From: Candidatus Poriferihabitaceae bacterium
GTDB lineage: Bacteria; Pseudomonadota; Gammaproteobacteria; Arenicellales; Poriferihabitantaceae
Length of the DNA: 64,000 nt
Assembly: GCA_965237995.1 (NCBI GenBank)
Contig: CBDEGO010000003.1
Span: forward strand, 305,925 to 369,924
Direction: 5' to 3'
Both the position numbers and the translations under genes were made by a program. This document shows, in pieces, positions 12,859 to 25,219 of the stretch (position 1 is its first letter; every line of letters starts with the position of its first letter). A model generated the notes under the pieces. The model was not told the DNA's origin and did no database searches. It saw only the letters and a program-made list of their open reading frames with translations.

Positions 12859-14797
12859 TTACGCCGGTTTCAATTTCTAACTCAGGCTCTGGAGGTTCGC
12901 GGTCGATCAACTTTAAACGCTCTACTAGGTAGTAATCTATTACTTCTTTAGCAATAGGGGCTGCAACTCTGCTACCACTGCCTCCATGCTCTATAACAAC
13001 TGCAAGCGCTATTTTAGGGTCATCAACCGGCGCAAACGCAACAAATAGAGAATGATCTCGAAATTTCTTTTCCGTGGTCGCTTCGTCATATTTGGCTCCT
13101 TGAGCAATACTCTTTACCTGCGCAGTACCCGTCTTACCTGCGATTTGATATTCTAAATCAACCCCTAAACGTCGCGCGGTACCGCGAGGGCCGTGCACCA
13201 CATCAGTCATCGCTTTGATCACTTCTTCATACGCCGCTGTCGATATTCCATCAACAGGTTCGGGCTTTGGATAAGACACTTCAATTTGCTCACCCGTATC
13301 CGCATCTTGAATCGCGGTTAAAAAGTGCGGGGTTACCCCTTGCCCTCTGTTCGCTAGCAATGCGGTTGCGGAAGCCAATTGTAAAGGAGTAGCCAGCATA
13401 TAGCCTTGGCCAATTCCAGTAATCACCGTCTCGCCCGGATACCATGGTTGCTCTTTAACGCGCTTCTTCCACTCCCGCGATGGCATTAACGCACTCGGCT
13501 CGTTTTTGATATCTACGCCGGTGACTTCGCCAAAGCCGAAGTTAGACATATCAGCATGCAGGCGATCAATCCCTAAGCGCTTGGCAGAGCGATAAAAATA
13601 AACATCACAGGACTGAGTAATCGCATCGTGTAGGTCGACTGAACCATGTCCTGTATGCTTCCAGCAGCGGTATCTATGTTTAGAATTCGGCAATGAATAC
13701 CAACCGGGGCAAAATACCTTAGTATTTGGACTGATTCCATTTTTCATTCCGATCAAGCCAATAAAGCCTTTAATGGTGGAACCGGGCGCATATCGCCCAT
13801 TCATTGCCCTATTTAGCAGAGGCCGCCGGTCTGACTCACGCAAGGCTTGGTAGGCCTTATTGGAAATTCCATTTACGAATGGGTTGGTGTCGTATCCAGG
13901 CTCACTAACGAAAGCTAAAATACCACCCGTTTTAGGATCAATGGCAACCGCCGCGCCCTCATAGCCTCTTAACAGCTGCCTAGTTTTTTGTTGTAGCTTG
14001 GTATCGGTACTCAGATATAAGCTTTTACCCGTAATCGGCTGTTTTTGGCTTAATACTCTAACTTCACGGCCATGTGCGTTAGTTTCAATTTGTTCCGAAC
14101 CCACTTGACCGAGCAAGATAGATTCGTAATTTTCTTCAATCCCTAATTTACCAATGTAGTGGGTGCCTCCGTATGCTTTTTTATCAATATTTTTAACATC
14201 CGTATCATTGATACGACCTACATAGCCGATCACATGCCCCATTAAGTCGCCTTGCGGATAATAACGTTTCAATGCGGCTACTAAAAAAACCCCATCAAAT
14301 TTATGTTGATGCGAGGAAAAACGTCCTGCCTCCGATTCCGTTAAATTAGTTCGTAGAACTTGCCGTTCAAACGAAGGGCGAAACTTAACCAGTTTTTTAA
14401 AATGCTCTACTTCTTCAGGCGTAATGTCCAGCAGGGTTTGCAACCGCTCTATGACTGCATCCATATCCTTCACTTGACTAGGCAAAACCTCTAAGTTATA
14501 GGCCCGTTCGTTCGTTGCGAGCGGTTCTCCATTACGATCAAAAATTAAACCTCGTACCGGCGCGATGGGTTGCGTGTTGACTCTGTTATCGTTCGCTAAA
14601 TCAGCGAAGCGCTGGTATTGATCAATTTGCAAATAGTACAAACGAGCAACCAGTATTAGCAGCAAGATAAAAGTCAATAAAGTCACCATGATCAAGCGAG
14701 ATTGTACTATCGCGACCTCTCGCAACTGGTCTCGAATAGCAGGGACACCTTCAGGCTCTAAAGTGCGCGTATATTGATTCGATTGCTTAGGTTCCAT
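12833..14797 (-). CDS. mrdA: Penicillin-binding protein 2 (elongasome transpeptidase)
   Basis: N-terminal TM anchor plus STIK (SxxK), SCD and KTGTAQ motifs. mreBCD-mrdA-rodA synteny. Confidence 0.95.
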   Translation of the reverse strand: MEPKQSNQYTRTLEPEGVPAIRDQLREVAIVQSRLIMVTLLTFILLLILVARLYYLQIDQYQRFADLANDNRVNTQPIAPVRGLIFDRNGEPLATNERAYNLEVLPSQVKDMDAVIERLQTLLDITPEEVEHFKKLVKFRPSFERQVLRTNLTESEAGRFSSHQHKFDGVFLVAALKRYYPQGDLMGHVIGYVGRINDTDVKNIDKKAYGGTHYIGKLGIEENYESILLGQVGSEQIETNAHGREVRVLSQKQPITGKSLYLSTDTKLQQKTRQLLRGYEGAAVAIDPKTGGILAFVSEPGYDTNPFVNGISNKAYQALRESDRRPLLNRAMNGRYAPGSTIKGFIGLIGMKNGISPNTKVFCPGWYSLPNSKHRYRCWKHTGHGSVDLHDAITQSCDVYFYRSAKRLGIDRLHADMSNFGFGEVTGVDIKNEPSALMPSREWKKRVKEQPWYPGETVITGIGQGYMLATPLQLASATALLANRGQGVTPHFLTAIQDADTGEQIEVSYPKPEPVDGISTAAYEEVIKAMTDVVHGPRGTARRLGVDLEYQIAGKTGTAQVKSIAQGAKYDEATTEKKFRDHSLFVAFAPVDDPKIALAVVIEHGGSGSRVAAPIAKEVIDYYLVERLKLIDREPPEPELEIETGVSEQLNAQL

Positions 14798-14805
14798 GCA
14801 ATAAA

Positions 14806-15303
14806 TTACTGCGCTTTAAATGGGTCTATTCGGCTGAGAATACTCGAGACCAGCGGCCAAACTAGCGCCGTTGTGATTGCGCTCTCCCAGTAAACCGCGC
14901 GTATGGGTATATCGCTAGTCAGTTGGTTCACCCAAGCAATGATAGCGATATTGATAGACTGTAACACGACGATCATAAGCATTTGCTCGATCATGTTAAA
15001 ACGCTTAATATTTTCCGTGCTGGTGCTCACCACCGCGGCGATTAACGCTTTCCCCAGAGCATGCAAGCCAAGCAATGAAAAGCTCAAAATATCATGCGCT
15101 ATGCCGGAAAACCACCCAAAGAACACGCCTAAATGACGCGGCAGATGTAATACCCAATAGATGACGACTAACGCTATCCAGTCTGGCTTTGCATAACGCA
15201 AAAACGCTGGCAAGGGAAGTAAGGTCAGCAATATTGCTACGACAAAGCTTAAGATAATAGTTCGCCAATGCGGTAGGCGAACGGCTGCAAGAGAGGCTTT
15301 CAT
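14806..15303 (-). CDS. mreD: Rod shape-determining protein MreD
   Basis: 165-aa polytopic membrane protein. Overlaps the mreC stop by 4 nt. Confidence 0.9.
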   Translation of the reverse strand: MKASLAAVRLPHWRTIILSFVVAILLTLLPLPAFLRYAKPDWIALVVIYWVLHLPRHLGVFFGWFSGIAHDILSFSLLGLHALGKALIAAVVSTSTENIKRFNMIEQMLMIVVLQSINIAIIAWVNQLTSDIPIRAVYWESAITTALVWPLVSSILSRIDPFKAQ

Positions 15304-16175
15304 TCGCTTAGCTCTGGCGAAGCAATGTCTTCTTCAACTTCAACGGCTGTTTCGTTTTTAGACAGACGGGCCCGTAATAACAAAACTTCTTTAACACGAT
15401 CCACTTTAGAAAAAGGTCGCACTCTAACCGTCATGAACGCTGCCGCTGTCTCGGCGTCAACCTCAACCACTTCCGCTACCGGATGCCCCGGCGGGAAAAC
15501 GTCACCTAAACCAGAAGTCACTAAGATATCACCCACCTCGATATCAGCTTGCTGCGATAAAAAAGGTAACACCATTTGCTGATATTGACCTTGCCCGCGG
15601 ACAATTGTTCGTAGCCCATTGCGCAGCACTTCCACCGGCACCGCATGGCTAGAATCAGTAATCAGCGTAACCACGCTATACGCTTTACTAACAAAACTGA
15701 TTTGTCCAATGACCCCATTAGCATCGATAACCGCTTGCGAATCATATACGCCTGAATTTTTACCGCGATTAATTACATACCGTTGATCTTGAGCGCCTTT
15801 TAATTCTGCATCAACCACTCTACCTAACATCATCACCTCTTCTGGTCGGGCATGACTAGCCGACAGCAAAAGTAATAATCTGTTTTTCTCAAGCTCCAAC
15901 GCATCGTATCGTTGAACTTTTGCTTGTAAGAACTTGTGATCGAGTTGTAACTGATCGTAGCGATCAATAAGCTCACGATTAGGCCAGTAATTAGAGTAGA
16001 AACTACTTAACCTTGAGGGGATATCAAGCACCCGATAGAACGGGACATTGATGTTGGCAGCGTAATAGCGTGCTTGGTTAAAAAACGGGGTGCGATGGTC
16101 AAATATCATTAACGCAACGGTCAAAATTGACACAAATGCAAATCGATAAATCGGCGTTAAGGTATTTAAGGCCAA
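15300..16175 (-). CDS. mreC: Rod shape-determining protein MreC
   Basis: N-terminal TM, coiled coil, then beta-rich domains (GDILVTSGLGDVFPPGHPVA). Confidence 0.93.
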   Translation of the reverse strand: MALNTLTPIYRFAFVSILTVALMIFDHRTPFFNQARYYAANINVPFYRVLDIPSRLSSFYSNYWPNRELIDRYDQLQLDHKFLQAKVQRYDALELEKNRLLLLLSASHARPEEVMMLGRVVDAELKGAQDQRYVINRGKNSGVYDSQAVIDANGVIGQISFVSKAYSVVTLITDSSHAVPVEVLRNGLRTIVRGQGQYQQMVLPFLSQQADIEVGDILVTSGLGDVFPPGHPVAEVVEVDAETAAAFMTVRVRPFSKVDRVKEVLLLRARLSKNETAVEVEEDIASPELSE

Positions 16176-20958: not shown

Positions 20959-21035
20959 GCGCCCGTAGCTCAGCTGGATAGAGTACCTGGCTTCGAACCA
21001 GGTGGTCGGGAGTTCGAATCTCTCCGGGCGCGCCA
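20959..21035 (+). tRNA. tRNA-Arg (anticodon TCG)
   Basis: Acceptor stem GCGCCCG/CGGGCGC, D-arm AGCTCAGCTGGATAGAGT, anticodon stem CCTGG/CCAGG with loop CTTCGAA (TCG), T-arm GGGAG-TTCGAAT-CTCTC, encoded CCA. Backbone closely resembles E. coli tRNA-Arg. Confidence 0.93.
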
Positions 21036-21844: not shown

Positions 21845-23098
21845 TTAGTTTTCAGTCAAATAGAAATTTCCCTGCTCGTGCTTGTTTAACCAACCGAGCT
21901 CCGCTTTATTGAGATTAAGACTTACTTTCCAACCTTCTTCACATTCAGTTTCTTCTAATACGGTGTATTTGTTGTGTACCAAGGATCGAAGTTTAGATTG
22001 GTCATACGGTAATACAATATCAATTTCACGGTGATCCTCCGCTAAAATAGTCACCAAGGCTTGACTAATTAAGTCTATGCCTTCACCGCTGATAGCAGAC
22101 AGACGAATTTGAAATTTCTGATTCGTGTCTCCTTCTGTTTCTACAATTCCAGCCGATTCGTTACACAGATCAATTTTGTTATAGACCATGATCAACGGTA
22201 TATGCTCAGCGTCTAATTCGGTCAATACCTTGTTCACCTCATCGATATGGGTCAGATAATTTTCGTCGGACTTGTCAACTACGTGTAGCAAGACGGAAGC
22301 ATTGGCAACTTCTTCTAACGTTGAGTGAAAAGCATTAACTAGGCTGTGCGGTAAATCCTCAATAAAGCCAACCGTATCAGACAGCACAACGTCACCGTAA
22401 TTATCAAGATTTAGCCTACGCATTGTTGGATCAAGTGTCGCGAAAAGCTGATCTGCTGCGTATAGTTCTTCCCCTGTTATCTTATTGAATAAAGTCGACT
22501 TGCCGGCATTGGTGTAACCTAACAGTGACACCACAGGGATAGGCACTTTCCCTCGTGCACGGCGTCTAAGGTCTCTTTGCTTGCTTAGCTTCTTTAGACG
22601 AGCATCCAAAGTTTTTATGCGCTTGCCAATGAGCCGTCTATCTGTCTCCAGCTGGGTCTCACCAGGCCCACGCAAACCAATACCTCCCTTTTGTCGTTCT
22701 AAATGAGTCCAGCCGCGGACTAGCCGAGTTGACAGATGTTTTAATTGCGCTAACTCTACTTGCAGCTTTCCTTCATGCGACGAGGCACGTTGCGCAAAGA
22801 TATCCAGTATTAAGCCCGTGCGGTCCAATACTCTGCAATCAAGCGCTCGTTCGAGCTTACGTTCTTGTATGGGAGAAATCGCGTGATTAACCACCACTAA
22901 ACTGACTTCCATGTCCTTAACGATTTGCTTTAACTCTTCAATTTTTCCTGAACCAATAAAACTAGCGGGGTGTGGTTTATCGCGCAATGCAGTAAGCACA
23001 TGCACAACCTCTCCACCCGCAGAATGTGTTAAAGCAATGGATTCGTCGACACTTAGTCGGTGTTTGAGTTGGCGATGCGTTTGGTCTATGACAACCAC
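21845..23098 (-). CDS. hflX: Ribosome-associated GTPase HflX
   Basis: GLILDIFAQRASSHEGKLQVELAQL; G1 GYTNAGKST, G3 DTVGF, G4 NKID. GTG start. Upstream in-frame sequence has no canonical start before a stop, so the N-terminus is slightly short but intact. Confidence 0.93.
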   Translation of the reverse strand: MVVIDQTHRQLKHRLSVDESIALTHSAGGEVVHVLTALRDKPHPASFIGSGKIEELKQIVKDMEVSLVVVNHAISPIQERKLERALDCRVLDRTGLILDIFAQRASSHEGKLQVELAQLKHLSTRLVRGWTHLERQKGGIGLRGPGETQLETDRRLIGKRIKTLDARLKKLSKQRDLRRRARGKVPIPVVSLLGYTNAGKSTLFNKITGEELYAADQLFATLDPTMRRLNLDNYGDVVLSDTVGFIEDLPHSLVNAFHSTLEEVANASVLLHVVDKSDENYLTHIDEVNKVLTELDAEHIPLIMVYNKIDLCNESAGIVETEGDTNQKFQIRLSAISGEGIDLISQALVTILAEDHREIDIVLPYDQSKLRSLVHNKYTVLEETECEEGWKVSLNLNKAELGWLNKHEQGNFYLTEN

Positions 23099-23244: not shown

Positions 23245-23514
23245 TTAATAGTTTGGTTGCTTACCTTCTTCAATGGTCGCTTCTCCATCCCCATCGTGTG
23301 GAATGCTGATTGACTTAACCGGCACGATTGTGGAAATCGCATGTTTATAAATCATTTGATTTACACTGTTTTTGAGCAGTATTACAAATTGATCAAATGA
23401 ATCGATCTGCCCTTGTAATTTAATTCCATTTACCAAGAAGATCGCGACAGCTATACGCTCTTTTCTTAAAATGTTCAAAAATGGGTCCTGAAGCTGTGCG
23501 CCTTTTGCAGCCAT
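23245..23514 (-). CDS. hfq: RNA chaperone Hfq
   Basis: [40 protein letters not shown]...[10 protein letters not shown] Sm1/Sm2 motifs. AGGAGA Shine-Dalgarno 7 nt upstream. Confidence 0.97.
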
Positions 23515-23658
23515 GGGGTTGTTCTCCTAGCGTTAATTATTATTAGAAAACGATATTTTTTCGTCACTTACTACCGACTATCAAGCCATCCATCTCGCTT
23601 AATGGAATAGCTACGTATTTCATCTTGTAGAGGATAGTATGCGATACGCCTAGATACA

Positions 23659-23682
23659 ACATGAATATGACCATATTCATGT
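23659..23682. repeat. Perfect 10-bp inverted repeat ACATGAATAT-GACC-ATATTCATGT
   Basis: Read directly from the sequence. It lies between the terminator-like structure (23684-23758) and hfq. The function (operator or RNA hairpin) is unknown. Confidence 0.85.
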
Positions 23683-23683
23683 T

Positions 23684-23758
23684 AAAAAGAAAGAGCGGTG
23701 CTTTTGGTTAAACCCCTTTCAACAGACACCCCGTGTCTAAAATTTTTATGCACCGCTC
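23684..23758 (-). terminator. Terminator-like structure on the minus strand upstream of hfq
   Basis: Minus strand GAGCGGTGC...GCACCGCTC forms a 9-bp GC-rich stem (23750-23758 / 23693-23701). It encloses an inner hairpin AGACAC-GGG-GTGTCT and is followed directly by TTTCTTTTT (23684-23692). The long interior is atypical for a simple intrinsic terminator. Confidence 0.4.
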
Positions 23759-23850
23759 CCCTCAAATAGATTGTTGATTCCGTTCTTTCAAAGAGATATC
23801 AATTCATTTCTTCGACCCGAAGAATGTACTACCGTTTGTTTATTATATCA
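23684..23850 (-). ncRNA. Candidate ~150-nt small RNA or attenuating 5' leader of hfq (prediction only)
   Basis: Minus strand carries an extended -10 TGATATAAT (23842-23850). This is followed by hairpin CATTCTTCG-GGT-CGAAGAAATG (23805-23826), then the terminator-like structure with a U-tract ending at 23684. The only ATG opens a 2-codon ORF. Confidence 0.3.
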
Positions 23851-23976
23851 ACCTTTTATCTTATTTATTTTACCTTTTGTATGCATATTATCTATTTTTT
23901 GTGACCAAACTCACTGCTTTTAGAACGGATCAACGCCAGACTCTATAGCTCTACAAAAACAAGAAAAAAATCACTC

Positions 23977-24531
23977 ATGAGGAAAATAAAACAAGGCGCT
24001 AATAGACTCAATATAGGTGGATTTACACTAATTGAGTCTATGGTGACGCTCACTATTATCTTAACCATAGCAAACTTTAGCGTACCCAATGTAATGGCCA
24101 TGATGAAGAAAAATACTATCCGATCAATACAAGAACATTTAGTGCAAGACCTGCGTTTATCTAGAGTAACCGCTAAGGCAAACTCAGTGACAGTAACCAT
24201 TTGCCCCAGCATAAACGGGCAATCGTGTGAAAATACTCAGCATTGGCATACAGGTTGGATTTCTTTCGCAGACGAAAATAGCAACAAAATAGTTGAAGCG
24301 AGCGAAAAGGTGATTAGTCGCTTTACCCCAGCGCAACCCTTATCCATTAATGTTAGCCTACATGCCGCCGGCCGAGCTAAGCAGGTAAAGATTAACTCGT
24401 CTGGTTTAATACGAACCAGTGGTCACATTCGAATATGTAATTCATCTATAGAACAGGACAAGATTCAAACTATCAAATTGAACAATAGAGGTAGAATGAA
24501 CAAAGAACTGCGAAAAACTAGCTGCGTTTAA
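23977..24531 (+). CDS. Type IV pilus minor pilin, FimT/FimU (GspH-domain) family
   Basis: Prepilin leader MRKIKQGANRLNIG-GFTLIESMVTLTIIL (G/FTLIE cleavage-methylation site). GspH-like body (LVQDLRLSRVTAKANSVTVTICPS). AT-rich. No other pilus genes nearby. Confidence 0.75.
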   Translation: MRKIKQGANRLNIGGFTLIESMVTLTIILTIANFSVPNVMAMMKKNTIRSIQEHLVQDLRLSRVTAKANSVTVTICPSINGQSCENTQHWHTGWISFADENSNKIVEASEKVISRFTPAQPLSINVSLHAAGRAKQVKINSSGLIRTSGHIRICNSSIEQDKIQTIKLNNRGRMNKELRKTSCV

Positions 24532-24595
24532 TCAAGCTTCACTTAAGATAAGTAAGTCACAACAATACTAACCATACAGGGCGATACCGTTCTAG

Positions 24596-25219
24596 CTAAA
24601 TTGATATTGAAGAAGACTTCGCCTCGCTTTCTAATGCTTTTAGAATTGTTGCCAGTTCAATTGCCGTAACAGAATCATCAAGCGGTTCATGCAACCATAT
24701 ATGGACGCGTCGCCGCTTTAGCCACCTATGGCGCTCATCAGCCTTTGCTCTAGCAAATAGGCTACCCGCCATTCCAAAAATGTAAAACGGCACCACGGGT
24801 GCGTGGCTATTTTTTAAGCTAAATTCGAATCCACGTTTTATTTTGCATATCTCTCCATCTTGGCTTATCTCTCCTTCTGGAAATAAACAAATTACATTTT
24901 GCCCCAGTAGTGCATGGTGAATATCTTTAATAGACTGTTTACTTTTGCTAGGAGAGATTGGCACCGTACCGAATCGCTTTAAAAAACCATGTAATAACTT
25001 CATATCATAAAAACGCCGGTCTATAACAAATCGTATCGGGCGTATCACGGCTAACTGAATAAGCGCCCAGTCAATCCAGCTTATGTGGTTACCTAACAGT
25101 AGCAAACTTCCATCTTGTGGTATCGCTGCTTGATTGTGCACAATGATTTTATAACGCAGCCTAAATAGAAAACCTAGTACGCACTGCAAGAAAGGACGTA
25201 ACCATTGATTGACGTTCAT
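24596..25219 (-). CDS. PlsC-family lysophospholipid/1-acylglycerol-3-phosphate acyltransferase
   Basis: HX4D motif NHISWID and FPEGEIS block, 207 aa. Confidence 0.8.
   Translation of the reverse strand: MNVNQWLRPFLQCVLGFLFRLRYKIIVHNQAAIPQDGSLLLLGNHISWIDWALIQLAVIRPIRFVIDRRFYDMKLLHGFLKRFGTVPISPSKSKQSIKDIHHALLGQNVICLFPEGEISQDGEICKIKRGFEFSLKNSHAPVVPFYIFGMAGSLFARAKADERHRWLKRRRVHIWLHEPLDDSVTAIELATILKALESEAKSSSISI

What the first reader, a model, noticed from the sequence alone, without database searches (positions are those of the whole stretch)
23684..23850. Promoter-to-terminator unit with no ORF directly upstream of hfq: candidate sRNA or attenuating hfq leader
Seen on the minus strand, the same orientation as hfq: an extended -10 TGATATAAT (23842-23850). 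It is followed by a 7+2-bp hairpin CATTCTTCG-GGT-CGAAGAAATG (23805-23826). Next comes a 9-bp GC-rich stem GAGCGGTGC/GCACCGCTC enclosing an inner hairpin AGACAC-GGG-GTGTCT and an AU-rich stretch, followed immediately by UUUCUUUUU (23684-23692). The only ATG opens a 2-codon ORF. No minus-strand gene lies upstream that would need this terminator; the next upstream gene is on the plus strand. Inference: either a ~150-nt independent sRNA, whose AU-rich segment plus terminal hairpin and U-tail resemble the architecture of Hfq-dependent sRNAs, or a terminator/antiterminator-type leader controlling read-through into hfq. Hfq autoregulation through its own 5' UTR is established in E. coli, but a terminator-type element is not part of that paradigm.
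Basis: partly seen in the sequence, partly recalled or inferred. Interest (0 to 1): 0.55.

Follow-up and report, generated by a model that had tools for sequence, protein, structure and literature searches.

The report
Conserved small RNA gene upstream of hfq
Just upstream of the RNA-chaperone gene hfq sits a short promoter-to-terminator unit with no protein-coding potential; it is conserved in five related uncultured bacteria and most likely makes a previously uncatalogued small regulatory RNA, an ordinary kind of gene in an interesting place.

Summary
The described features are all at the stated coordinates on the minus strand. The 3' part is real and under selection. It is a long three-tier hairpin (23690-23761) running into UUUCUUUUU (23684-23692). 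It folds far better than shuffles (z -4.5). It is kept in five lineages whose hfq synonymous sites are saturated, with compensatory changes and G·U pairs that fit only the hfq-sense strand.

The 5' part needs correcting. Across lineages the conserved promoter is a canonical -35 TTGATA (23846-23851), 17 bp, -10 TACATT (23823-23828). The first hairpin overlaps the -10/start site and is not conserved. The RNA is about 133 nt (at most about 152).

No Rfam family, plasmid, phage or second copy matches. Sister groups with the same gene order lack it.

The evidence leans to an independent small RNA:
- a variable 5' half with no conserved alternative helix
- a candidate hfq promoter just after the terminator
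- a U-rich stretch, hairpin and U-tail like Hfq-binding modules
- an apparently intact copy in a relative where insertion sequences separate it from a disrupted hfq

A read-through or attenuating hfq leader is not excluded. I rate it a new member of a known kind, of moderate interest.

The parts
23900..23915 (.). CRP/FNR-type palindrome AGTGA-GTTTGG-TCACA. It is centred about 72 bp upstream of the predicted RNA start and about 70 bp upstream of the divergent pilin gene's ATG. It is a possible shared activator site (inferred only).
   Evidence: Sequence. L081 keeps it as AGTGATGTTAATCACA and L082 keeps it only partly.
23852..23879 (-). Conserved A-rich upstream block (CAAAAGG ... GATAAAAGG), in the position of an UP element.
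   Evidence: AAAGG and G.TAAA.G are invariant in all five lineages. Block identity is 0.62-0.75 against 0.37-0.58 at hfq third codon positions.
23846..23851 (-). -35 hexamer TTGATA of the RNA's promoter.
   Evidence: Promoter scan. The same position reads TTGAAA in L082 and L087, TTGTAA in L147 and TTGCAT in L081.
23842..23850 (-). It is an alternative, less conserved promoter reading that overlaps the -35.
   Evidence: It is perfect only in the window. It reads TGAAATAAT in L082, TGAAATGAT in L087, TGCATAAAA in L081 and TGTAAATTA in L147.
23823..23828 (-). -10 hexamer TACATT, 17 bp after the -35.
   Evidence: It reads TACATT, TACATT, TACAAT and TAAATT in four lineages and is degraded to TATAGA in L081.
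23684..23818 (-). Predicted RNA of about 133 nt. It would be up to about 152 nt if transcription starts near 23835 from the alternative -10.
   Evidence: Inferred from the promoter and terminator positions. No transcript data exist.
23769..23818 (-). Variable 5' part of the RNA.
   Evidence: Identity between lineages is 0.15-0.48, the level of neutral sites. Predicted folds differ between lineages.
23762..23768 (-). U-rich single-stranded stretch UAUUUGA just 5' of the terminator hairpin.
   Evidence: Relatives have UUUUAAG, UUUUAUAG and UUUUCUAAG. It resembles the internal U-rich site of Hfq-binding modules (from general knowledge; see also the papers listed).
23750..23761 (-). 5' arm of the outer stem P1, GGGGAGCGGUGC.
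23739..23748 (-). 5' sides of the middle helices: UAAA (23745-23748) and UUUU (23739-23742).
   Evidence: They pair with UUUA (23709-23712) and GAAA (23717-23720). In L082, L087 and L147 the equivalents are UAGAC/GUCUA or UAGGC/GUCUA, a G-C to A-U double change.
23724..23738 (-). Apical hairpin AGACAC-GGG-GUGUCU, inside the most conserved sequence block GACGGGGUGUCUGUUGAAAG.
   Evidence: G.GGG.U.UCU.U..AA is invariant in all five lineages.
23702..23723 (-). 3' sides of the middle helices, followed by the asymmetric A-rich internal loop ACCAAAA (23702-23708).
   Evidence: The loop is A-rich in all lineages (AAACAAAAA, AUAAAAAC, GUUAAAA).
23690..23701 (-). 3' arm of the outer stem P1, GCACCGCUCUUU.
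23684..23692 (-). U-tract UUUCUUUUU of the intrinsic terminator.
   Evidence: UCUU...UUU is invariant in all five lineages.
23658..23683 (.). Perfect 12-2-12 palindrome AACATGAATATG-GT-CATATTCATGTT directly after the U-tract. Its right half abuts the candidate hfq -35. Its role is unknown.
   Evidence: L081 has a shorter palindrome. Only the right half is kept in L082 and L147.
23631..23659 (-). Candidate hfq promoter: TTGTAT (23654-23659), 17 bp, TATCCT (23631-23636).
   Evidence: Read by eye from the alignment. L081 has TTGTGT-17-TATACT and L147 has TTGAAT-17-TATTCT. It is weaker in L082 and not alignable in L087. It falls below the threshold of the promoter scan.
23536..23544 (-). AAUAAUAAU, three ARN triplets, just upstream of the hfq Shine-Dalgarno (23524-23528). 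It is a possible site for Hfq translational autoregulation and is not part of the RNA unit.
   Evidence: Kept in the window, L081 and L082. The comparison is with E. coli hfq autoregulation through the distal face and the 5' UTR (PMC6348989).
23245..23514 (-). hfq coding sequence (89 aa).

Best explanation
The unit is an independently transcribed, clade-specific small non-coding RNA gene lying between a divergent GspH-like pilin gene and hfq, in the hfq orientation.

A sigma-70-type promoter (-35 TTGATA, 17 bp, -10 TACATT, preceded by an A-rich block) starts transcription near 23816-23818. About 50 nt of fast-evolving sequence follow. The RNA ends in a conserved module: a U-rich stretch, a roughly 70-nt three-tier hairpin with a conserved apex (GACGGGGUGUCUGUUGAAAG) and an A-rich internal loop, and a U-tail. 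That module acts as an intrinsic terminator and releases an RNA of about 133 nt.

The 3' architecture is that of the Hfq-binding module of enterobacterial sRNAs. The RNA is therefore most likely an Hfq-associated regulator, either base-pairing or Hfq-titrating. hfq itself would be transcribed mainly from its own weaker promoter directly after the terminator, with any terminator read-through adding to hfq transcription.

Shown here: the sequence features, their conservation, the covariation, the strand, the lack of coding potential, and that the element is single-copy in the 64-kb window, with no second copy in the relatives' loci.

Inferred: that it is transcribed, where the ends lie, that it binds Hfq, and what it regulates.
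For: 1. Selection. hfq third codon positions are 37-58% identical among the lineages, which is saturated. The promoter block is 62-75% identical and the 3' domain 60-71% in most pairs, while the middle of the RNA is 15-48%.
2. Promoter. A -35/17 bp/-10 arrangement is kept in four lineages and degraded in the fifth.
3. Structure. The outer 13-bp stem has 3 pairs with changes on both sides. Over 26 pairs and five sequences, 92.4% of cells pair (1 of 500 shuffles reaches this) and the covariation score is 0.342 (0 of 500). Registers slid by 1-3 columns pair at only 42-64%. The MAFFT-only alignment of four sequences gives 88.5% and 5 double changes.
4. Strand. Sense versus antisense folding energy is -28.0/-23.2 (window), -27.1/-8.7 (L082), -34.9/-28.3 (L087) and -23.9/-8.6 (L147). 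This reflects G·U pairs. The U-tract exists only on the hfq-sense strand.
5. Independence from hfq. In L147 the element (58.9 bits, E 3e-15) keeps its promoter and hairpin although an insertion sequence separates it from hfq and hfq itself is split by insertion sequences. In L087 it has lost the pilin neighbour but still lies upstream of hfq.
6. No conserved aptamer or antiterminator. The 5' half is at neutral divergence, and alternative pairings of the 5' arm fall at different places in each lineage.
7. A candidate hfq promoter directly after the terminator is kept in three or four lineages.
8. Sister groups with the same pilin-hfq-hflX gene order lack the unit, so hfq expression does not inherently need it.
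9. It is non-coding. It matches no Rfam family and no plasmid or phage sequence. There is one copy in the 64-kb window.
Against: - There is no transcript evidence of any kind.
- Only five lineages could be found, so the covariation statistics are thin. The alignment was fitted to the model.
- Under the favoured start site no conserved single-stranded seed is evident. The only conserved RNA sequence lies inside the terminator hairpin, which is unusual for a base-pairing sRNA.
- The closest relative (L081) carries a degraded copy with a weakened promoter, a 12-nt deletion and three stem mismatches. Its fold is no better than shuffles, and its antisense strand folds better.
- The candidate hfq promoter is weak (7-8 of 12 consensus positions), was read by eye, and is absent in L087. 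hfq may therefore depend on read-through.
- The U-tract is interrupted by a C (longest run 5 U in the window). Hfq-binding sRNAs of E. coli typically have 7 or more (PMC5558911).
- The insertion sequences in L147 may be too recent for the element to have decayed.
Confidence: 0.55

Rival explanations
1. The unit is an attenuating hfq leader. hfq is transcribed from the conserved upstream promoter, and the long hairpin with its U-tract is a conditional terminator. Read-through is set by a trans-acting factor, most attractively Hfq itself binding the U-rich stretch, the A-rich internal loop or the U-tail. The terminated product is a by-product.
For: - The unit has the same orientation as hfq and ends only 170 nt before its start codon. 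In all five lineages it lies, or ancestrally lay, upstream of hfq.
- The promoter scan finds no robust sigma-70 promoter between terminator and hfq in L081 or L087, and only chance-level ones in the window and L082.
- U-rich and A-rich single-stranded motifs flank the 3' arm of the stem.
- sRNA-type terminators are known to be leaky and condition-dependent (PMC4509938).
Against: - The 5' half of the leader evolves at the neutral rate and has no conserved alternative helix. No Rfam cis-regulatory family matches.
- A conserved -35/-10-like pair sits directly after the terminator in the window, L081 and L147.
- In E. coli, Hfq did not affect read-through at sRNA terminators (PMC4509938 abstract).
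- Sister groups express hfq from the same gene order without such a unit.
- The element persists in L147 after being cut off from a disrupted hfq.
- A terminator hairpin of -24 to -35 kcal/mol with a long U-tract would be a severe block.
Confidence: 0.22
2. It is a decaying or neutral relic, for example the promoter and terminator of a lost gene. It has no present function, and its apparent conservation reflects shared ancestry.
For: The copy in the closest relative (L081) is visibly degraded. The unit is confined to a small clade.
Against: - Synonymous sites of the adjacent hfq are saturated while the promoter and hairpin are kept.
- Compensatory and G·U-preserving changes maintain pairing in four lineages.
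- Flanking intergenic DNA and the middle of the unit have diverged to the neutral level.
Confidence: 0.07
3. It acts on the other strand or as DNA. Either it is a plus-strand transcript antisense to a long hfq leader, like h2cR or Anti-hfq, or it is a protein-bound DNA palindrome.
For: Known hfq-linked sRNAs (h2cR, PMC3474761; Anti-hfq, PMC5225317) are antisense to the hfq 5' UTR. In L081 the antisense strand folds better than the sense strand.
Against: - The plus strand has no U-tract after the hairpin.
- In four of five lineages the sense strand folds better, by up to 18 kcal/mol, because of G·U pairs that become C·A mismatches on the other strand.
- The conserved -35/-10 pair points in the hfq direction.
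- Covarying arms argue against a sequence-specific DNA operator.
Confidence: 0.04
4. It encodes a small protein or leader peptide.
For: Short TTG/GTG-started frames cross the conserved GACGGGGTGTCTGTTGAA block and give D-G-V-S-like residues in three lineages.
Against: - There is no ATG-started ORF of 8 or more codons in the window, and by eye no Shine-Dalgarno sequence.
- Starts, stops and lengths differ in every lineage.
- Indels lie within the region.
- The pattern of substitutions preserves base pairs, not codons.
Confidence: 0.02

Closest known systems
Hfq-binding trans-acting sRNAs of enterobacteria (e.g. SgrS, RyhB, RybB; class II examples ChiX and MgrR, which carry A-rich motifs)
   Same: - It is a stand-alone gene with its own promoter and is about 100-150 nt long.
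- It is non-coding.
- Its 3' module consists of a U-rich stretch, a GC-rich terminator hairpin and a U-tail.
- It carries an A-rich, ARN-like single-stranded segment.
- It is restricted to one clade.
   Different: - It has no sequence or Rfam relationship to any of them.
- The terminator hairpin is about 70 nt long with three tiers and a sequence-conserved apex, not a short stem-loop.
- The U-tail is interrupted by a C.
- No conserved single-stranded seed can be recognised.
- Hfq binding is untested.
h2cR of Burkholderia cenocepacia (PMC3474761) and Anti-hfq of Legionella pneumophila (PMC5225317)
   Same: Each is a small RNA gene located in the region just upstream of an hfq gene, restricted to one genus, with a 3' poly-U. 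h2cR is described as a long duplex-like fold. Both regulate hfq expression.
   Different: Both are transcribed antisense to the hfq 5' UTR and act by perfect complementarity. The element here is in the sense orientation, ends before the candidate hfq promoter, and has no complementarity to hfq mRNA that is kept across lineages. The GGGG(U)/ACCCC match to the start region in the window is absent in L081 and L082.
Translational autoregulation of E. coli hfq through its 5' UTR (PMC6348989)
   Same: An A-rich (AAU)3 motif lies just upstream of the hfq Shine-Dalgarno in three lineages. This suggests the same distal-face autoregulation may operate here, downstream of the unit.
   Different: That mechanism acts on translation and involves no terminator. 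The motif lies outside the promoter-to-terminator unit. It is untested here.
Terminator/antiterminator leaders (riboswitches, protein-dependent attenuators)
   Same: The order promoter, leader, intrinsic terminator, gene is in one orientation.
   Different: There is no conserved aptamer or antiterminator. The leader's 5' half is not conserved, and a candidate promoter lies between the terminator and the gene.

Membership tests
Hfq-binding (Hfq-dependent) sRNA | Independent transcription unit with its own promoter | tested here: inconclusive
   A -35/17 bp/-10 pair is conserved in four lineages. This is sequence evidence only, with no transcript-end data.
Hfq-binding (Hfq-dependent) sRNA | Rho-independent terminator whose hairpin is followed by a long U-tail (7 or more T in E. 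coli sRNA genes, PMC5558911) | tested here: inconclusive
   The hairpin and U-rich tail are present and conserved. The tail is UUUCUUUUU in the window (8 U of 9, longest run 5). L087 has a run of 7.
Hfq-binding (Hfq-dependent) sRNA | U-rich or A/U-rich single-stranded site next to the terminator hairpin | tested here: met
   UAUUUGA at 23762-23768. Relatives have UUUUAAG, UUUUAUAG and UUUUCUAAG.
Hfq-binding (Hfq-dependent) sRNA | Conserved seed that pairs with target mRNAs | tested here: inconclusive
   The 5' half is not conserved. The block ACGGUAGUACAU is conserved, but under the favoured promoter reading it is the promoter spacer and -10. A search for its complement in the window gave 32 matches against 40 expected. 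Only 64 kb of genome was available.
Hfq-binding (Hfq-dependent) sRNA | Physical binding to, and stabilisation by, Hfq | not testable with these tools
   This needs co-immunoprecipitation or CLIP, or RNA half-life measurements in an hfq mutant.
Terminator/antiterminator leader (attenuator, riboswitch) | Conserved sensing domain or alternative antiterminator helix competing with the terminator | tested here: not met
   The 5' half is at neutral divergence. Predicted alternative partners of the 5' arm differ in position in every lineage. There is no Rfam hit.
Terminator/antiterminator leader (attenuator, riboswitch) | No promoter between the terminator and the regulated gene | tested here: inconclusive
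   A candidate TTGTAT-17-TATCCT pair is kept in the window, L081 and L147, but it is weak. The scan finds nothing robust.
cis-antisense hfq regulators (h2cR, Anti-hfq) | Transcribed from the strand opposite to the hfq 5' UTR | tested here: not met
   The promoter, the U-tract and the G·U-containing stems all lie on the hfq-sense strand.
Any Rfam 15 family | Covariance-model match at or near the gathering score | tested here: not met
   The only hit at gathering score in the window is a tRNA at 20959-21032. Nothing falls on the element at E up to 10 in the window or up to 1-5 in four relatives.

The most novel reading that the evidence does not exclude
The long hairpin is an Hfq-responsive intrinsic terminator in the hfq leader. 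Hfq would bind the U-rich stretch, the A-rich internal loop or the nascent U-tail and so set how much transcription from the strong upstream promoter reaches hfq. That would be transcriptional autoregulation of the RNA chaperone by attenuation, with the terminated leader doubling as an Hfq-bound small RNA. No such mechanism is known for hfq.
Probability: 0.12. Interest if true: 0.65.

Novelty: new member of a known kind. Interest (0 to 1): 0.36.

Why it matters
If it is transcribed as predicted, this is a new small-RNA family with a defined structure, in an uncultured gammaproteobacterial clade for which no regulatory RNAs are catalogued.

Its fixed position directly upstream of hfq, in the same orientation, is unusual. 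The two hfq-linked sRNAs compared here, h2cR and Anti-hfq, are antisense. The position suggests that production of the RNA is coupled to production of the chaperone, through co-regulation, titration of Hfq, or read-through into hfq.

It gives a compact, testable case for how Hfq levels are set outside the enterobacterial miaA-hfq arrangement. In itself a new candidate sRNA is an ordinary finding.

Tried and rejected
**Searches for more relatives**
It returned only distant gammaproteobacteria at 58% identity or less, and none carries the element.
- A metagenome-contig scan with the core DNA pattern ACGGGGTGTCTNTNNAAAN{15,35}TTCTTTTT gave 0 hits.
- A metagenome-contig scan with a clade-specific HflX N-terminal fragment found no close relative and no element.
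- Look-ups of the next-nearest Hfq proteins (P0125, P0137, P0135) gave loci without the element. L090 and L094 have the same gene order and L089 does not. P0126 gave a contig with only 154 nt upstream of hfq, which is uninformative. P0123 is an unrelated tandem Hfq.
- Exact look-ups of the window's own Hfq and HflX found no contig. The organism's name could not be obtained. The nearest named HflX is Arenicella at about 59%.

**Ideas tested and dropped**
- An antiterminator from the 10-nt complementarity GAAAGAACGG/CCGCUCUUUC (pair I6) is not kept in relatives.
- Pairing of the apical GGGGU with ACCCC at the hfq start is seen in the window only.
- CsrA-type GGA loop motif: no match by eye.
- Sigma-32-type reading of the block after the terminator: the spacing does not fit.
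- Targets of the conserved ACGGUAGUACAU block in the window are at chance level.
- Small-ORF reading.
- Plasmid or phage origin.
- Repeat or mobile element: the covariance model finds one copy in the 64-kb window and no second copy in any relative's locus.
Full report
**1. What is in the window**

All features below are on the minus strand.
- hfq occupies 23245-23514 (Pfam Hfq, E 3.7e-29) and is followed by hflX at 21845-23098.
- The next gene upstream is divergent: a GspH-like prepilin-type protein at 23977-24531 on the plus strand.
  - TGATATAAT at 23842-23850
  - hairpin at 23805-23826
  - outer stem GAGCGGTGC/GCACCGCTC at 23750-23758 and 23693-23701
  - inner hairpin at 23724-23738
  - UUUCUUUUU at 23684-23692
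- The only ATG opens a two-codon frame, and no ORF is shared with relatives.
- The simple terminator scan misses the structure because its loop limit is 8 nt.

**2. Is it more than chance?**

- The 161-nt stretch as a whole is only mildly more stable than shuffles (z -2.2).
- The 75-nt 3' domain is clearly exceptional: -28.0 kcal/mol against -15.9 +/- 2.7 (z -4.5, 0 of 300 shuffles).
- No Rfam family matches at gathering scores or at E up to 10.

**3. Relatives**

The organism is an uncultured gammaproteobacterium without close relatives among the genome representatives that the truncated scan returned. The best HflX match was 58%, and the nearest named genus is Arenicella at about 59%.

The protein collection gave four further lineages:

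| Lineage | HflX identity to window | Note |
|---|---|---|
| L081 | 87% | |
| L082 (and identical copies) | 77% | |
| L086/L147 | 76% | |
| L087/L088 | 75% | |

Synonymous sites are saturated. hfq third codon positions are 37-58% identical although Hfq proteins are 80-94% identical.

Against that background the spacer shows a mosaic:
- Conserved: the promoter block (mostly 62-75%), the 3' domain (mostly 60-71%), and a short block after the terminator.
- At the neutral level: the far-upstream DNA, the middle of the unit (15-48%), and most of the hfq 5' region.

**4. Promoter**

The promoter scan calls the same canonical promoter independently in three lineages, and I read it by eye in a fourth:

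| Lineage | -35 | Spacer | -10 |
|---|---|---|---|
| window | TTGATA | 17 | TACATT |
| L082 | TTGAAA | 17 | TACATT |
| L087 | TTGAAA | 17 | TACAAT |
| L147 | TTGTAA | 17 | TAAATT |

It is perfect only in the window and is lost in L147 (TGTAAATTA).
- I therefore place the start near 23816-23818, giving an RNA of about 133 nt. A start near 23835 remains a possible second or alternative start.
- On this reading the first hairpin (23805-23826) overlaps the -10 and the start site. It is also not conserved.
- An invariant A-rich block lies upstream: CAAAAGG ... GATAAAAGG.
- A CRP-type palindrome AGTGA-N6-TCACA at 23900-23915 is also present in L081. It sits at about -72 from the RNA start and about -70 from the pilin ATG. 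Its role is conjecture.

**5. Structure**

In L082, L087 and L147 the minimum-energy fold of the 3' domain is a single long hairpin:
- a 12-14-bp GC-rich outer stem
- an 8-nt A-rich bulge on the 3' side
- a 5-bp middle stem (UAGAC/GUCUA)
- a short U/A helix
- an apical stem closing a GGGGU-type loop

The window can form the same tiers. Its middle stem is UAAA/UUUA, a G-C to A-U double change, and its apical stem is two pairs longer.

Pair counts:

| Alignment | Cells paired | Double changes | Covariation score | Slid registers |
|---|---|---|---|---|
| MAFFT, 4 sequences | 88.5% | 5 pairs | | 38-66% |
| Model-fitted, 5 sequences | 92.4% (1 of 500 shuffles as high) | | 0.342 (0 of 500) | 42-64% |

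- The outer stem alone shows C-G to U-A, U-A to C-G and C-G to A-U exchanges.
- Many pairs are G·U, so the structure is strand-specific. Sense beats antisense by 5-18 kcal/mol in four lineages.
- With five sequences, and one alignment fitted to the model, this is supportive rather than conclusive.
- The apex sequence GACGGGGUGUCUGUUGAAAG is conserved beyond what pairing requires. This suggests a recognised motif, either a partner RNA or a protein.

**6. Exceptions and distribution**

- The copy in the closest relative, L081, is degraded. Its promoter is weakened (TTGCAT ... TATAGA), it has a 12-nt deletion and three stem mismatches, and its fold is no better than shuffles.
- A covariance model built from L082 and L087 finds the following:
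  - one copy in the window (47.8 bits, E 3e-10)
  - the L147 copy (58.9 bits)
  - the L081 copy only weakly (18.4 bits)
  - nothing in 80 distant gammaproteobacterial hfq-hflX loci
  - nothing in three sister groups, two of which share the MFS/acyltransferase, pilin, hfq, hflX gene order
  - nothing in 46 metagenome loci
- The sister groups have no comparable promoter-terminator unit upstream of hfq.
- The element has no similarity to plasmids or phages.
- It is therefore a young, clade-specific, dispensable element. That profile is typical of small RNA genes.

**7. Small RNA or leader?**

For an independent RNA:
- The 5' half is unconstrained, and no alternative helix is shared between lineages. 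This argues against a riboswitch-like or structured attenuator.
- The conserved block just after the terminator reads as a weak promoter at constant 17-bp spacing: TTGTAT-17-TATCCT in the window (23631-23659), TTGTGT-17-TATACT in L081, and TTGAAT-17-TATTCT in L147.
- The U-rich stretch, hairpin and U-tail resemble the Hfq-binding module of E. coli sRNAs (PMC5558911 and PMC4509938).
- In L147 the element keeps its promoter and fold although one insertion sequence lies between it and hfq, and hfq is itself split after about codon 47 by nested insertion sequences.
- In L087 the pilin neighbour is replaced but the element still lies upstream of hfq.

For a leader:
- The orientation matches hfq and the unit is close to it.
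- The candidate hfq promoter is weak and was read by eye. It is absent in L087, and the scan finds nothing robust.
- sRNA terminators are known to be leaky (PMC4509938).
- No obvious seed is present.

The two readings are not exclusive, because read-through from the strong upstream promoter would add to hfq transcription. My estimates are:

| Reading | Probability |
|---|---|
| Independent small RNA | about 0.55 |
| Attenuating or read-through leader as the main function | about 0.22 |
| Relic | about 0.07 |
| Other-strand or DNA element | about 0.04 |
| Small protein | about 0.02 |

These five readings sum to 0.90; I leave the remaining 0.10 unassigned.

**8. Comparison with what is known**

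- The nearest functional analogues by location are h2cR of Burkholderia (PMC3474761) and Anti-hfq of Legionella (PMC5225317). Both are antisense to the hfq 5' UTR. This element is sense and does not overlap it, so it is not a member of that kind.
- By architecture it resembles Hfq-binding sRNAs, but binding, a seed and an uninterrupted U-tail are unverified.
- Separately, an (AAU)3 motif just upstream of the hfq Shine-Dalgarno is kept in three lineages. It recalls the distal-face translational autoregulation of E. coli hfq (PMC6348989). It lies outside the unit.

**9. Verdict**

- The element is best filed as a new, structured, clade-specific candidate small RNA gene next to hfq: a new member of a known kind.
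- Interest is moderate (0.36). The position next to hfq and the unexcluded attenuation reading (probability about 0.12) are what lift it above a routine sRNA prediction.

Noticed in passing
window 23658-23683: A perfect 12-2-12 palindrome, AACATGAATATG-GT-CATATTCATGTT, lies directly after the U-tract and abuts the candidate hfq -35. L081 has a shorter version with different spacing (ACATGAATA|TATTCATGT). L082 and L147 keep only the right half. The spacing change fits a hairpin better than a dimeric operator. Its function is unknown.
   Followed up: partly
window 23900-23915: A CRP/FNR-type site, AGTGA-GTTTGG-TCACA, lies between the divergent pilin gene and the RNA promoter and is also present in L081. 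GTGA-N6-TCAC occurs 5 times in the window against 0.45 expected. By coordinates, the other four lie inside ORFs.
   Followed up: partly
window 23536-23544: AAUAAUAAU, three ARN triplets, lies just upstream of the hfq Shine-Dalgarno (23524-23528). It is kept in the window, L081 and L082. It may be a site for Hfq translational autoregulation as in E. coli.
   Followed up: no
window 23245-25219; L081, L082, L090, L094, L147: hfq is not preceded by miaA. Instead the gene order is acyltransferase (fused to an MFS domain in relatives), a GspH-like pilin gene on the opposite strand, hfq, then hflX. This order is kept across the clade and its sister groups.
   Followed up: partly
L147 1720-9473 (same contig as L086): In one relative, hfq is split after about codon 47 by nested insertion sequences (IS21-type istB/rve, DDE_Tnp_1, rve). 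Another insertion sequence separates the RNA element from hfq. The same IS families recur nearby (13864-15609), which suggests a genome undergoing IS expansion that may lack functional Hfq.
   Followed up: partly
L081 2058-2208: The closest relative carries a degraded copy of the element, with a weakened promoter, a 12-nt deletion and three stem mismatches. This is either loss in that lineage or an assembly problem in a single-run contig.
   Followed up: partly
window 23098 (hflX start): The hflX ORF as listed (GTG start, 417 aa) is about 30 residues longer at the N-terminus than the products called in three relatives (383-386 aa). The L081 product is called at 418 aa. The true start may lie downstream, which would lengthen the hfq-hflX spacer.
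   Followed up: no
window 20959-21032 (+): A tRNA gene between gatB and the maf-like gene is the only Rfam match in the 64-kb window at gathering scores.
   Followed up: no
window 23568-23575 and 23826-23833: The octamer CGGTAGTA occurs twice on the minus strand. One copy is in the spacer and -10 of the RNA promoter. The other is about 55 nt upstream of the hfq start, within a stretch (TCGGTAGTAAGT) that is also kept in L081. This could be a shared protein site or a partial duplication. It remains unexplained.
   Followed up: no
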